Sequence record: KP682380.1
Length of the DNA stretch: 64,000 nucleotides
Source: Escherichia phage PA27
Reading direction: 5' to 3' (one strand)
In this document: in pieces, positions 9,001-12,000 of the stretch
Numbering within the stretch: position 1 is the first letter of the stretch
Layout of the letters: every line of letters begins with the position of its first letter
Made by a program: the position numbers

Positions 9001-12000
9001 GCTGGTTTGCGTTTGCATTGTAAGACCACTCGTGATGGGGTTGGCCTGTGTAGTTTGTCGGAGCTAATCGCCTCCTGACTTTGCAGGTTTGCGCGACGAG
9101 CTCTACGGCGAGAAGCTGCGGTGCCTTTAAATTCTGTTTTTCTGGACATAGATTCCTCCCGAATAAACTTTGGCGATGCAATCTCGAAGCTCCTCCTGAG
9201 ACGGTTGCTTCGGCATTGCATCCCACAGCTTATGTGGTTGGGTGATCTGGCTTTTCAGCCACGTAGTCGAGAGTCGACGTTGTTTAAAGAGCCTGCCAGT
9301 CTGTTCCATTTGGCTTCCAGCGTCCTGCTGATGGTTAAATAGTACGATATGTACTTCACTTGGTCAATACAATTTGTTCTAAAACGGGGCGTTTTTTTAC
9401 AACGCTTTGTATTTAATAGTATTGTTTTTTAGCGTGGGTGTATTGCCTCGGCGATGTAAGGAGAGATCAGAATTGCGTTGTTTAGTGAGTTGTATCTATT
9501 TATTTTCCAATAAATACAATTGGTTATGTGTTTTTTTGGGCGAGAGGAAAAGAAAACCCGGCATGGAGGCCGGGTTGATGATTAGCGGTGTGGCCTTGAG
9601 CGATAATGCTCACACACATGTTCAAGATTTCCATGCCTTATCCGTTCATAGGCATTCACATGAACTTCTCGATCGAATTGGTCATTCAAATTGTATGTAG
9701 ACATCTGTGTTTTCTCATATTGGCGGCAGCCCTACAACCGCTTGAAAAAATGTACCAGACGCGCTAAGGTTACATCGCAAATATTGTGTACCTTAACAAG
9801 GGCTCCTTTTGGAGGCTCTGGTTAAACAGCATCAATGTCGGACTGGGGAGTTGGACATTGTGCTGAATGCTTTTGCATTATTGAGGCCGAACGTAAACCT
9901 TCAGAATTGAAGAGATGCGTTCGGCTTCTTCGTTTGTGATATCGTTAGGAATGCCTTTAATCGTTACTGTAACCCCTGATTCAGGTCGAAGAACTACTGG
10001 AAGATCATAGGTATGAAGTGCATTAGCCTTGCCTTCGACTTTTGTTGGTTCGCCAGTCAAATCTTTTTCCTCACTGGATTCTTTGTCAATCGGAGTGTAT
10101 GGGATTTCTTCACCAGACTGGAAAGCTACAAACTTTTTGATTGCACTTTCCATGCGGCTTTTATATGCAGTAATGCTGCTGTCGCTAGGCTTCGGCTCAG
10201 TTGCGTTGATGTATCGCTCGGCAAGCTCATTCACATCAAGCTGAGTAACATCACCCATTTCCTCTTCTTGGACTACCGTTAAGAGGCGAGCGGATGAGTT
10301 TTTTAAATTTCGAGCGGTGGCCTCCTTCATTATGTTCAGCGACATAAGCTCTTCAAGGAAGTCCTTGAATGCCTGCACGCTAACGTTTGACTTTGCCATT
10401 TGCTCTCTCTCTAAGTTATTGACTCAGATCGAGTTTATCCAGGAATTGATTTGCATGCAAGACTCAAGTCTTGAGAATTTCCGTTCAAGATCCACTCTCA
10501 ATAAAAAAGGCCGCACCTCTGCGACCTTTCATCTCCTAAATCTCTTTTCTCTTACCTAAAGAAACAGCAGGCTGGGTCAGCCCTAACAACTTCAAGTGCA
10601 TCGGTCAGAGAAAGCTCCGTGCTATACAGGTGTTATTTCATATCTTTTTGCATCCAATAAATTTTCCATCTGTCCAGAGAGCGGATGCACTTGATTCTTG
10701 TTGATGGCAGGACGTTTTTTCACCTGCCTCACCCTGCCATACAGGACGCTGCTCACCGATATCTATCGTCCGGTCATTGATGTTATAGACAATATCCAGA
10801 TCATTACGGATATACTCAGATGGCCTTATGCTTTCAATGAATAGATGAACTTCTTTTTGACCGCTTGATACTCATGGCCATTAAACTCCATCTATCCTCT
10901 TTACCCAAACGTCTCTTCAGGCCATTGGCTGGCGATAACTTTCCCCACAACGGAACAACTCTCATTGCATGGGATCATTGGATATTGCGGGTTTAGTGGT
11001 TGTAGAAACACCTGACCGCTATCCCTGATCAGTTTCTTGAAGGTAAATTCATCACCACCAAGTCTGGCTATGCAGAAATCGCCGGGCTCAACAGCTTGCT
11101 CAGGGTCAACCAGAATTAACATCCCGTCAGGAAAACTAGGTTTGGAACCTGTTGGTGCGGTCATTGAGTTACCTTCAACCTCAAGCCAGAATGCAGAGTC
11201 ACTGGCTTTTTTGGTTGTGCTTACCAATCTCTCCGCATCACCTTTGGTAAAGGTTCTGAGTTCTGGAGAGAACATCCCAGCCTGAACATGAGAAAAAACA
11301 GGGTACTCATATTGTTTTTTAACTGGGGCCGATGAGTATTCGCCAACAGGTGAAAATGTCCCGTCGTGGTTGAATGATATGTTATCAATACCAAGGTATT
11401 TAAACACCACACCAATATCACTAAGAGATGGATGACGAGATCCGCGCAACCAGTGTCCAATTCCACCCTGCGTCATACCTAGCTCTTCGGCTAACTTCTC
11501 TTGAGTTATGCCGAGCTCTTTCATTCTGGATCTAGCCAGTTCATACCATTTCATTTTCATGTCCTTATTATTACGCTCTGTACTGGAACCATCCATGCAC
11601 AATGTGTATTTTTACTTGTATTTGAGAAGTACATATTGTATTTTTTTATTCGTGGTTACTATGGAGGGCATATGAGCAACCTACGAAAATATCGAGAGTC
11701 ACTGAATATCTCTCAAACAACACTTGCTAAGGCAGTTGGATGCACACAGGGAGCTATCGGACATTGGGAATCTGGTCGTCGCTTCCCAGACCTTAAAACA
11801 TGCCGTGCTCTTGTTGCGTGTCTAAACAAGTTAGGCGCAAAAGTAAGTCTTGATGACGTGTTCCCGCCGGAGCACAAAGCCGCTTAATAAGCGGAGCCGC
11901 TCTTTGTAACAACGGACATTCGTCCTACGTCGCTGAAAAGCGAGTCCCAAGATATCTGACCAACTAAGGCCATATGCGTTTCCACGCATACCTTTCAACT

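What the first reader, a model, noticed from the sequence alone, without database searches (positions are those of the whole stretch)
11898..11943. Matching nutL and nutR sites with a GAAA-loop boxB
nutR (boxA CGCTCTTTGTAAC, boxB UCGCU-GAAA-AGCGA) after cro and nutL (boxA GCTCTTTAA, boxB UGGCU-GAAA-AGCCA, 9248..9292) in the N leader share the same architecture, supporting a lambda-style N system. The 22-nt boxA-boxB spacer in nutL, which contains its own small hairpin, is longer than in lambda.
Basis: partly seen in the sequence, partly recalled or inferred. Interest (0 to 1): 0.3.

Follow-up and report, generated by a model that had tools for sequence, protein, structure and literature searches.

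The report
Known nut sites of Stx phage
The two RNA signals that let this Shiga-toxin phage's N protein override transcription terminators are real and correctly identified, but they are already annotated in public records and follow the layout described for phage H-19B, differing mainly in a four-base rather than five-base loop.

Summary
nutR (11898-11943, +) and nutL (9248-9292, -) are present exactly as described, and the composite motif occurs twice against 0 expected by chance. The window is 100% identical to Stx phages of E. coli O157:H7 such as VT2-Sakai, and GenBank AP000422 already annotates both sites as putative N-utilization sites.

The long, hairpin-bearing spacer is therefore a feature of the family, not of nutL. 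The shared layout is [boxA]-ACAAC-hairpin-UACG-boxB, as in H-19B, 933W and HK97.

Across 37 distinct sites the spacer stem covaries strongly: 94.6% of cells are paired, the covariation score is 0.94 against 0.19 in shuffles, and four of five pairs show compensatory changes.

H-19B, 933W and HK97 carry a GACAA pentaloop, whereas this phage has a true GNRA tetraloop (GAAA). In viral contigs the loop class tracks the arginine-rich motif (ARM) of N perfectly (75/75 and 63/63), and nutL and nutR never mix classes (0 of 132 contigs).

This is an ordinary, already known system, with a modestly interesting specificity variant that has not been tested.

The parts
11898..11943 (+). nutR as a whole: boxA, spacer with hairpin, and boxB
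   Evidence: Annotated as 'putative N-utilization rightward' in AP000422, equivalent to window 11898-11937.
11898..11906 (+). nutR boxA, CGCUCUUUG. It has the rrn-like core with three U and G at position 8 of the core.
   Evidence: Compare lambda boxA CGCUCUUA.
11909..11913 (+). Conserved ACAAC on the 5' side of the nutR spacer hairpin
   Evidence: ACAAY is conserved in 87 of 98 unique related sites.
11914..11925 (+). nutR spacer hairpin GGAC-AUUC-GUCC, followed by conserved UACG at 11926-11929
   Evidence: fold. Identical in H-19B, 933W, HK97, g341c, S135 and Shigella 75/02. Stem covariation across the family.
11930..11943 (+). nutR boxB, UCGCU-GAAA-AGCGA: a 5-bp stem with a U-A closing pair and a GNRA tetraloop
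   Evidence: -5.9 kcal/mol, z = -3.3. H-19B has UCGCU-GACAA-AGCGA at the homologous place.
9248..9292 (-). nutL as a whole, in the N leader
   Evidence: Annotated as 'putative N-utilization leftward' in AP000422, equivalent to window about 9253-9293.
9284..9292 (-). nutL boxA, GCUCUUUAA. With the following ACAAC it reads GCUCUUUAAACAAC, which is rrn-boxA-like.
   Evidence: boxA is present at nutL in 22 of 23 unique relatives with a 90-93-aa N and in 0 of 45 with a 120- or 127-aa N.
9266..9278 (-). nutL spacer hairpin GUCGA-CUC-UCGAC, flanked by ACAAC (9283-9279) and UACG (9265-9262)
   Evidence: Relatives have GUCGA-ACAC-UCGAC, GAUUC-GAAUAU-GAAUC, GGUGA-CGGA-UCACC and others. Covariation.
9248..9261 (-). 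nutL boxB, UGGCU-GAAA-AGCCA
   Evidence: -7.1 kcal/mol, z = -4.6. Relatives with an N 86% identical to this one have UGGCU-GCAA-AGCCA, which is still a GNRA loop.
8877..9149 (-). N gene (90 aa including the stop codon). The arginine-rich motif SRRRARRANLQSQ is residues 13-25, at nt 9075-9113.
   Evidence: Pfam PF25694 at E = 3.4e-32. Alignments.
9339..9367 (-). pL-like promoter, TTGACC-17-TACTAT, about 45 nt upstream of nutL boxA
   Evidence: Annotated as 'putative major leftward promoter' in AP000422.
11672..11887 (+). cro (71 aa, HTH). nutR begins 11 nt after its stop codon.
11973..11998 (+). tR1 region, containing the hairpin AUGCGU-UUCC-ACGCAU at 11974-11989. This is the terminator that nutR-modified polymerase must pass before cII.
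   Evidence: Annotated as 'putative rho dependent terminator for pR transcript' in AP000422. From the spacer hairpin to the cII ATG the window differs from H-19B nutR/tR1 by one substitution and one 1-nt deletion. H-19B nutR/tR1 is an experimentally used Rho-dependent terminator (PMC3526286).
8557..8578 (-). Intrinsic-terminator-like site downstream of N in the leftward operon. A second one lies at 8411-8432 (-).
   Evidence: These are consensus matches only.

Best explanation
These are the nutL and nutR sites of the phage's N antitermination system. RNA polymerase starting at pL or pR transcribes a nut site. The boxB hairpin forms in the nascent RNA and is bound by the arginine-rich motif of the 90-aa N protein. 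N, with NusA and probably other Nus factors, then stays on the elongating polymerase and lets it read through tR1 (rightward, into cII, O and P) and the terminators after N (leftward, into ea10, cIII, kil, gam, bet and exo).

The architecture is that of H-19B, 933W and HK97: [boxA]-ACAAC-short hairpin-UACG-boxB. The spacer hairpin folds away most of the 22-nt spacer, so the conserved ACAAC and UACG flanks, and boxA and boxB, come as close together as in lambda's short spacer.

Two things distinguish this phage from H-19B. First, boxB carries a true GNRA tetraloop (GAAA) instead of the GACAA pentaloop, matched by a lambda-like motif (RRRARRANLQSQ) instead of RRRERLKAKALA. Second, both nut sites keep a good rrn-like boxA, so NusB/NusE probably take part.

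Shown here: the sequences, folds, positions, homology, stem covariation, and the association of loop class with motif class. Inferred: binding, the requirement for Nus factors, and the passive 'shortening' role of the spacer hairpin.
For: - Motif and folds: (2 matches against 0 expected; boxB z = -3.3 and -4.6).
- N gene: (PF25694, E = 3.4e-32).
- Positions relative to pL, cro, tR1 and cII.
- The identical sequence is annotated as nutL/nutR in AP000422. The homologous sites are annotated in 933W.
- The same layout is seen in H-19B, 933W, HK97, Min27, g341c, S135 and Shigella 75/02.
- From the spacer hairpin to the cII ATG, nutR/tR1 differs from H-19B only by one substitution and the loop C deletion.
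- H-19B nutR has 'two hairpins'. N with NusA/NusG protects the spacer and boxB, and N binds the loop of boxB (PMC3526286).
- Spacer stem covariation: 94.6% of cells paired against 55.8% in shuffles; score 0.941 against 0.192; 0 of 500 shuffles as high; register slides at most 0.226; 4 of 5 pairs with compensatory changes. There are 34 distinct hairpins in 87 unique sites, and 85 of 87 are fully paired, against a mean of 22.8 when the arms are re-dealt.
- Loop class against motif class: 75/75 GACAA go with RRRERLKAKALA, and 63/63 GAAA or GCAA go with RRR[AE][RH]RA.LQ.
- nutL and nutR of one contig never mix classes: 70 + 57 + 5 concordant, 0 mixed.
- In P22's GACAA loop the C is looped out of a GNRA-like fold (PMC12550061). 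Lambda N recognises a GNRA-like fold, the closing U-A pair and the first G (PMC12027372). All of these features are present here.
- The motif matches lambda's at 8 of 12 positions.
- NusA binds the nut spacer, and an rrn-type boxA with the extra U binds better (PMC2724277).
Against: - No experiment on this particular N/nut pair was found in the searchable literature.
- Folding the whole 56-61-nt nut RNA does not beat shuffles (z about -1.2), and the MFE structure pairs boxA with the 3' half of boxB instead of forming boxB. Formation of boxB in vivo therefore rests on co-transcriptional folding and N binding.
- The association of loop class with motif class comes from related, non-independent sequences that were collected with patterns fixing CTACG and GCU/AGC.
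- boxA is dispensable in H-19B (Neely & Friedman 2000, recalled from memory; only the title was verified). Its role here is therefore uncertain.
- The N motif has no aromatic residue at the position of lambda Trp18, so the recognition details cannot simply be copied from lambda.
Confidence: 0.88

Rival explanations
1. The components are the same, but the system works exactly like H-19B: it needs only N and NusA, boxA is a dispensable relic, and NusB and NusE (S10) play no part.
For: The nut architecture and the C-terminal part of N are H-19B-like. boxA is absent or degenerate at many related sites that must still function: nutL of H-19B, 933W, HK97, g341c and S135, and nutR of g341c and S135. 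From memory, Neely & Friedman 2000 reported that H-19B N needs neither boxA nor NusB/S10; the citation was verified. No protection of boxA was seen in H-19B footprints (PMC3526286).
Against: In this phage both sites keep the rrn-like core GCUCUUU. Among unique relatives, boxA at nutL goes strictly with the short N: 22 of 23 for the 90-93-aa N, against 0 of 45 for the 120- and 127-aa forms. This suggests that the short N, which lacks about 37 central residues, depends on boxA, whereas the long N does not.
Confidence: 0.3
2. The spacer hairpin is not a passive device that shortens the spacer. It is itself a sequence-specific binding site, for NusA or for Rho loading at nutR/tR1.
For: The nutR hairpin GGAC-AUUC-GUCC, loop included, is the commonest form (20 of 87 unique sites) and is identical in phages of both loop classes. 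In H-19B, Rho alone and N+NusA both protect the nutR spacer (PMC3526286). NusA binds the lambda nut spacer (PMC2724277).
Against: Across the family the stem sequence changes freely while pairing is kept, with 17 different 5' arms. Loops also differ in length and sequence. From memory of Neely & Friedman 2000, deleting the dyad had little effect and compensatory changes restored function. The conserved bases are the flanks ACAAY and UACG, not the stem.
Confidence: 0.25
3. The tetraloop and pentaloop classes are functionally interchangeable. Their perfect association with the N motif reflects physical linkage and shared ancestry, not binding specificity.
For: nutL lies only about 100 nt from the N start codon, so the two are co-inherited. 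The sequences are related, and the collection patterns were narrow. Arginine-rich peptides often tolerate variation in the loop; lambda N tolerates variation at several loop positions (PMC12027372).
Against: nutR lies 1.2-3.5 kb away across the highly mosaic immunity region, yet it never mismatches (0 of 132 contigs). The 120-aa N proteins combine the tetraloop-type motif with a body like the pentaloop-type 127-aa N, and they carry GAAA at both nut sites. nutR flanks are nearly identical between the window and H-19B while the loop differs. The authors of the epsilon34 genome paper predicted a novel BoxB specificity from the divergent N-terminus (PMC2629481).
Confidence: 0.3
4. The hairpins are chance inverted repeats, or they serve another purpose such as terminators or processing sites.
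For: Short 5-bp hairpins are common, and the terminator scan flagged the nutL spacer dyad on the + strand.
Against: The composite motif is found twice against 0 expected. The sites are in the canonical positions and have conserved homologs in hundreds of phage contigs with covariation. The N gene is adjacent.
Confidence: 0.02

Closest known systems
nutL and nutR of Stx phages H-19B and 933W, and of HK97 (N of 127 aa)
   Same: The layout is identical: [boxA]-ACAAY-spacer hairpin-UACG-boxB, with a 5-bp stem and a U-A or G-C outer pair. The nutR spacer hairpin GGAC-AUUC-GUCC is identical. From the spacer hairpin to the cII ATG, the nutR/tR1 region differs from H-19B by one substitution and the loop C deletion. 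The C-terminal 20 residues of N are the same.
   Different: The boxB loop is GAAA here and GACAA there. The N motif is RRRARRANLQSQ here and RRRERLKAKALA there. N here is 90 aa and lacks about 37 central residues, with about 40% identity overall. nutL here has a good boxA and a different spacer stem, whereas nutL of H-19B, 933W and HK97 has no boxA.
Phage lambda nutL and nutR with lambda N
   Same: The order is boxA, spacer, boxB. The sites lie in the N leader and after cro. The boxB stem is 5 bp, closed by U-A, and its loop starts with G and adopts or mimics a GNRA fold. The N motif matches at 8 of 12 positions (RRRERRAEKQAQ against RRRARRANLQSQ).
   Different: Lambda has a pentaloop (GAAAA or GAAGA) with one base extruded, an unstructured 8-9-nt spacer, a boxA with two U (GCUCUUA), and Trp18, which has no counterpart here. 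The body of N is unrelated apart from the motif.
Phage P22 nut sites and gene 24 protein
   Same: The C-terminal part of N is homologous (about 79% identity over 24 residues). The P22 boxB loop GACAA is the pentaloop of the sister class, and removing its looped-out C gives GAAA (PMC12550061).
   Different: The motif differs (RRHERRRKLAIE), the loop is a pentaloop, and no comparison of spacer architecture was made here.
Salmonella phages epsilon34, g341c and S135 (N of 120 aa)
   Same: Both nut sites have the same GAAA tetraloop boxB. The motif class is the same (GRRRERRAALQN). The nutR spacer hairpin is the same. The epsilon34 authors predicted a 'novel BoxB specificity' (PMC2629481).
   Different: The body of N is of the long H-19B type. 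nutL lacks boxA and has the GAUUCA/UGAAUC spacer stem.

Membership tests
Lambdoid N/nut processive antitermination system | [quoted passage not shown] | tested here: met
   The 90-aa ORF at 8877-9149 (-) matches PF25694 N_peptide at E = 3.4e-32 over residues 1-90. Its motif is SRRRARRANLQSQ. It lies downstream of the pL-like promoter.
Lambdoid N/nut processive antitermination system | A boxB RNA hairpin with a GNRA-type loop in each early operon | tested here: met
   The boxBs are UCGCU-GAAA-AGCGA and UGGCU-GAAA-AGCCA, with z = -3.3 and -4.6. The outer stem pairs covary among relatives: UCGCU, UGGCU, GCGCU, UAGCU, CGGCU and AGGCU, each with a matching 3' arm.
Lambdoid N/nut processive antitermination system | A boxA element (GCUCUU[U]A-like) on the 5' side of boxB | tested here: met
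   nutR has CGCUCUUUG and nutL has GCUCUUUAA.
Lambdoid N/nut processive antitermination system | Placement: nutL between pL and N; nutR between cro and tR1/cII; terminators downstream | tested here: met
   Terminator-like sites lie at 8557-8578 and 8411-8432 (-), and tR1 is annotated at 11973-11998.
Lambdoid N/nut processive antitermination system | N- and nut-dependent readthrough of terminators, and dependence on NusA | not testable with these tools
   This needs reporter assays. It has been shown only for the H-19B homolog (PMC3526286).
H-19B-type NUT site (spacer hairpin, 'reducer') | Dyad symmetry forming a hairpin in the spacer between boxA and boxB, at both nut sites | tested here: met
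   The hairpins are GGAC-AUUC-GUCC and GUCGA-CUC-UCGAC. Family-wide covariation: score 0.94 against 0.19, and 4 of 5 pairs compensatory.
H-19B-type NUT site (spacer hairpin, 'reducer') | An N protein homologous to H-19B N | tested here: met
   tblastn against HK97- and H-19B-type N gives E = 5e-12, 41% identity and 100% coverage. The alignment shows shared N-terminal and C-terminal segments, with about 37 central residues missing.
H-19B-type NUT site (spacer hairpin, 'reducer') | A boxB with the GACAA pentaloop, as in H-19B, 933W and HK97 | tested here: not met
   The loop is GAAA at both sites. The partner motif in N differs accordingly.
H-19B-type NUT site (spacer hairpin, 'reducer') | boxA and NusB/S10 are dispensable | not testable with these tools
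   The property is recalled from Neely & Friedman 2000, which is not held in the library. Retention of boxA at both sites here, and the correlation, argue that it may not hold for the 90-aa N.

The most novel reading that the evidence does not exclude
Within the H-19B-type N family there are two mutually exclusive specificity classes. One pairs a true GNRA tetraloop boxB (GAAA or GCAA) with a lambda-like motif that lacks Trp (RRR[AE][RH]RA.LQ). The other pairs the GACAA pentaloop with RRRERLKAKALA. The classes differ by a one-base loop indel and a short replacement in the N motif that includes a two-residue indel. Motif and boxB are exchanged as a module between different N bodies (90, 120 and 127 aa). 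This phage would be a natural case of N recognising a pre-formed GNRA tetraloop with no extruded base. In addition, its short N would have regained, or kept, dependence on boxA/NusB-NusE, which the long H-19B N has lost.
Probability: 0.5. Interest if true: 0.4.

Novelty: already known. Interest (0 to 1): 0.2.

Why it matters
N antitermination controls delayed-early gene expression of Stx phages. It therefore contributes to reaching Q and the toxin and lysis genes after induction. Knowing which N/nut specificity class a Stx prophage carries indicates which co-resident lambdoid prophages could cross-activate it.

For RNA-peptide recognition, the tetraloop and pentaloop classes offer a natural matched pair. 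The flanks are almost identical and the loop differs by one base, which makes them suited to dissecting how an arginine-rich motif reads a GNRA fold with or without an extruded base.

None of this changes the basic picture. The sites themselves are already annotated, and the architecture has been described for H-19B.

Tried and rejected
- The Rfam scan of 8000-13000 at E <= 1 gave no hit. No curated family matched at this threshold.
- A sequence search of PDB chains with the N protein gave no hit even at E <= 10.
- Folding the complete nut RNAs gave z about -1.2. The MFE structure pairs boxA with the 3' half of boxB. I tested whether this alternative pairing is conserved, by asking whether the base before the boxA core can pair with the 4th base of the boxB 3' arm. 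Only 28 of 41 unique sites could pair, and most of those were the fixed C/G of nutR. I rejected it as a coincidence of this phage.
- My first locus scan required GCTCTT[TA] plus a perfect GNRA hairpin, so it missed the H-19B-type sites. My first regex for loop length was greedy and found almost nothing. Both were fixed.
- The literature search with 'nutR' and 'nutL' as word starts was swamped by 'nutrition'.
- Neely & Friedman 2000 (PMID 11123680) is not held in the library, so its content is cited from memory only.
- The third GCTGAAAAGC match, at 62882, is a chance match inside an ORF.
- MAFFT offset boxB between the tetraloop and pentaloop rows. The formal pair count was therefore run on the spacer stem only. 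boxB stem positions 3-5 were fixed by the search patterns and carry no information.
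Full report
**Observation**

Reading the window confirms both sites at the stated coordinates.

- nutR on the + strand reads CGCTCTTTG-TA-ACAAC-GGAC-ATTC-GTCC-TACG-TCGCT-GAAA-AGCGA (11898-11943).
- nutL on the - strand reads GCTCTTTAA-ACAAC-GTCGA-CTC-TCGAC-TACG-TGGCT-GAAA-AGCCA (9292-9248).

The composite pattern GCTCTTT-N15-35-GCTGAAAAGC occurs exactly twice in the 64-kb window, at these places, against 0.00 expected from 100 shuffles. Folded alone, each boxB gives a 5-bp stem with a 4-nt loop (-5.9 and -7.1 kcal/mol; z = -3.3 and -4.6). No third complete site exists in the window. The only other GCTGAAAAGC match, at 62882-62891, is not a hairpin and lies inside an ORF.

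nutR also has a spacer hairpin (GGAC-AUUC-GUCC), and both sites span exactly 43 nt in the pattern match. The 22-nt spacer with a hairpin is therefore common to both sites, not a feature of nutL alone.

**Context**

The surrounding genes are those of a lambdoid immunity region.

| Gene | Coordinates | Evidence |
|---|---|---|
| N | 8877-9149 (-), 90 aa | Pfam N_peptide PF25694, E = 3.4e-32 |
| cI | 10901-11560 (-) | HTH plus S24 peptidase domains |
| cro | 11672-11887 (+) | HTH |
| cII | 12029-12325 (+) | PF05269 |
| Replication genes | downstream of cII | O-like gene and a DnaB-type helicase |

A pL-like promoter (TTGACC-17-TACTAT, 9367-9339) lies about 45 nt upstream of nutL boxA. Terminator-like sites follow N at 8578-8557 and 8432-8411. 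nutR starts 11 nt after the cro stop codon.

**Identity and prior annotation**

The region 8800-12400 is 100% identical to Stx-converting phages of E. coli O157:H7, including VT2-Sakai, Stx2 II, a Stx1-converting phage and the PA series. GenBank AP000422 (VT2-Sakai) already annotates the following features, given here in window coordinates:

- 'putative N-utilization leftward' at about 9253-9293
- 'putative N-utilization rightward' at 11898-11937
- pL and pR
- a 'putative rho dependent terminator for pR transcript' at 11973-11998

The 933W record annotates the homologous nutL and nutR. The finding is therefore already in the public record.

**Comparison with lambda, H-19B, 933W and HK97**

Lambda nutR is CGCTCTTA-CACATTCCA-GCCCTGAAAAAGGGC, and lambda nutL is CGCTCTTA-AAAATTAA-GCCCTGAAGAAGGGC. 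The distance from the start of boxA to the start of boxB is 15-16 nt in lambda, against 31 nt here.

H-19B (AF034975), 933W, Min27 and HK97 show the same layout as the window:

- nutR: CGCT[A/C]TTTTC-ACAAT-GGAC-ATTC-GTCC-TACG-TCGCT-GACAA-AGCGA
- nutL: ...ATAT-ACAAC-GATTC-GAATAT-GAATC-TACG-GCGCT-GACAA-AGCGC

From the nutR spacer hairpin to the cII start codon, the window and H-19B differ by one substitution and one deleted base, the C of the loop. H-19B nutR/tR1 is an experimentally used Rho-dependent terminator module. It is described as having two hairpins, with N plus NusA/NusG protecting the spacer and boxB (PMC3526286).

From memory, Neely & Friedman (Mol Microbiol 2000; title verified, paper not held) called the spacer hairpin the 'reducer'. 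They showed that compensatory changes restore function, that deleting the dyad has little effect, and that H-19B N needs neither boxA nor NusB/S10.

**The spacer hairpin is a conserved structure**

Many contigs had two divergently oriented copies 1.2-3.5 kb apart.

- Of 98 unique sites, 87 parse as AMAAY-insert-UACG-boxB.
- These 87 contain 34 distinct hairpins with 17 different 5' arms, including GGAC, GGCC, GGUGA, GUCGA, GAUUC, GAAGA and GGCA.
- 85 of 87 have the four outer pairs all intact, against a mean of 22.8 (maximum 35) when the arms are re-dealt among sites.

On a MAFFT alignment of 37 distinct sites, the formal count gives:

| Measure | Observed | Control |
|---|---|---|
| Cells paired | 94.6% | 55.8% in shuffles |
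| Covariation score | 0.941 | 0.192 in shuffles (0 of 500 as high) |
| Covariation score under register slides | n/a | at most 0.226 |
| Pairs with compensatory changes | 4 of 5 | n/a |

The conserved nucleotides are the flanks (ACAAY and UACG), not the stem. This fits a hairpin whose job is to bring its flanks together.

The nutR version GGAC-AUUC-GUCC is unusually invariant, loop included. That leaves room for a sequence-specific role at nutR, such as Rho or NusA binding.

**Loop class and the arginine-rich motif of N**

The window, Shigella 75/02, phiSTEC1589, g341c and S135 have GAAA (or GCAA) tetraloops. H-19B, 933W, Min27, HK97 and SPN9CC nutR have GACAA. The N alignment shows that the motif differs in step with the loop.

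| boxB loop at nutL | Sites | Motif of the N gene downstream |
|---|---|---|
| GACAA | 75 | RRRERLKAKALA-type in all 75 (N mostly 127 aa) |
| GAAA or GCAA | 63 | RRR[AE][RH]RA.LQ-type in all 63 (N of 90, 93 or 120 aa) |

These counts cover all fetched loci. In contigs holding both sites, nutL and nutR are always of the same class: 70 GACAA/GACAA, 57 GAAA/GAAA, 5 GAAA/GCAA and 0 mixed.

The 120-aa N of g341c and S135 combines the tetraloop-type motif with a body like the 127-aa N. This indicates that motif and boxB are exchanged together as a module. The epsilon34 genome paper had inferred a 'novel BoxB specificity' from exactly this divergent N-terminus (PMC2629481).

In the P22 complex the C of GACAA is looped out of a GNRA-like fold and touches the peptide (PMC12550061). 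In lambda the pentaloop forms a GNRA fold with one base extruded, and the closing U-A pair and the first G are the key contacts (PMC12027372). GAAA is therefore the fold without any extruded base.

The window's motif matches lambda's at 8 of 12 positions, but it has no counterpart of Trp18.

These associations come from related sequences collected with narrow patterns, so they are suggestive rather than proof of specificity. The argument against mere linkage is that nutR, separated from N by the mosaic immunity region, never mismatches.

**boxA**

Both sites here have the rrn-like core with three U. According to PMC2724277, rrn boxA with the extra U binds NusA without a spacer, whereas lambda needs the spacer.

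| N length | Unique nutL sites with a boxA core |
|---|---|
| 90-93 aa | 22 of 23 |
| 120 or 127+ aa | 0 of 45 |

I infer that the short N, which lacks about 37 central residues, may rely on boxA/NusB-NusE, whereas the long H-19B-type N does not. This has not been tested.

**Mechanism**

Shown here:

- the sequence elements, their folds and their positions
- homology to an experimentally studied system
- stem covariation
- the association of loop class with motif class

Inferred:

- The motif of N binds the tetraloop boxB on the nascent RNA.
- NusA engages the spacer flanks brought together by the hairpin.
- NusB/NusE bind boxA.
- The complex stays with the polymerase and suppresses Rho-dependent termination at tR1 and the terminators beyond N. 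This follows the general scheme for lambda N (PMC8632103) and H-19B N (PMC3526286).

**Rivals**

- Host-factor independence exactly as in H-19B, with boxA vestigial (confidence 0.3).
- The spacer hairpin is a specific protein-binding site rather than a passive device (0.25).
- The loop classes are interchangeable and the association reflects linkage only (0.3).
- Chance, or some other function (0.02).

**Novelty and score**

The sites are annotated in GenBank for the identical sequence, and the architecture was described for H-19B, so the finding is already known. The tetraloop class and its matched motif form a modestly interesting natural variant. I could not find it described explicitly in the searchable literature, beyond the epsilon34 prediction. 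Interest is 0.2.

**Side observation**

One locus brought in by the scans (L064) carries a tandem array of boxB hairpins of at least five different types, interspersed with rrn-like boxA copies:

- the GAAA class with its spacer hairpin
- two GACAA sites
- lambda's GCCCUGAAAAAGGGC
- the HK620/HK630 type CCUGC-CGAAAU-GCAGG
- a possible phi21-like hairpin

In E. coli chromosomes the array sits between an integrase with a promoter-like site and a long hairpin, ahead of a small HTH regulator. Downstream come antirepressor, ash-family and DUF5906 genes, the layout of a satellite or phage-inducible island. It could be a sensor that lets N of many helper phages switch the island on. I found no paper on this, and it has not been tested.

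Noticed in passing
L064:1500-1900 (+); L253 (E. coli ETEC H10407, NC_017633): 6980-7500 (+): A tandem array of boxB hairpins of at least five different specificity types: the GAAA class with a spacer hairpin, two GACAA sites, lambda's GCCCUGAAAAAGGGC, the HK620-type CGAAAU loop, and a possible phi21-like CUAAUA loop. Three rrn-like boxA copies are interspersed. The array lies between an integrase with a promoter-like site and a long hairpin, ahead of a small HTH regulator of a satellite- or PICI-like island (antirepressor, ash-family and DUF5906 genes). It is present in part in 661 of 5426 complete E. coli genomes and in full in 32. It may be a multi-specificity sensor of helper-phage N proteins. 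No paper on this was found.
   Followed up: partly
window 9284-9292 (-), and nutL sites of loci L003-L250: The presence of a boxA core at nutL goes strictly with the length class of N: 22 of 23 unique sites for the 90-93-aa N, against 0 of 45 for the 120- and 127-aa N. The short N lacks about 37 central residues. This hints that the short form depends on boxA/NusB-NusE while the long H-19B-type form does not.
   Followed up: yes
window 11914-11925 (+), and homologous nutR sites: The nutR spacer hairpin GGAC-AUUC-GUCC, loop included, is identical in phages of both loop classes and in E. coli, Shigella and Salmonella phages. nutL spacer hairpins vary freely. This may reflect an extra constraint at nutR, such as Rho loading at tR1 or NusA binding.
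   Followed up: partly
L007 (Salmonella phage SPN9CC): N leader about 4370-4400 (+) and cro-cII intergenic region: SPN9CC has a pentaloop-type N motif. Its nutR is UCGCU-GACAA-GGCGA, with a U.G closing pair. Its nutL hairpin is GCUC-C-GUCAA-C-GAGC, a GUCAA loop flanked by a C-C mismatch. This is an apparent mismatch between nutL and nutR within one phage.
   Followed up: no
L009 (HK630): about 4170-4200 (+) and cro-cII intergenic region: HK630- and HK620-type nut sites have boxB CCCGC-CGAAAU-GCGGG, that is, GAAA flanked by C and U, paired with an N motif RRRARRQAQREQ that also resembles lambda's. GAAA-containing loops therefore occur in another N lineage too.
   Followed up: no
window 9878-10399 (-): A 173-aa ORF between cI and pL (H0093 in VT2-Sakai) has no Pfam match. 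It lies on the pRM transcript, upstream of an intrinsic terminator at 9555-9576 (-). Its function is unknown.
   Followed up: no
window 11895-11950 (+) and 9240-9300 (-): In this phage the boxA core plus the base before it (CGCUCUUU or GGCUCUUU) is complementary to the loop plus 3' arm of the cognate boxB. As a result, the MFE fold of the whole nut RNA pairs boxA with boxB. The match in the preceding base (C at nutR, G at nutL) looked like covariation, but it does not hold across relatives (28 of 41).
   Followed up: yes
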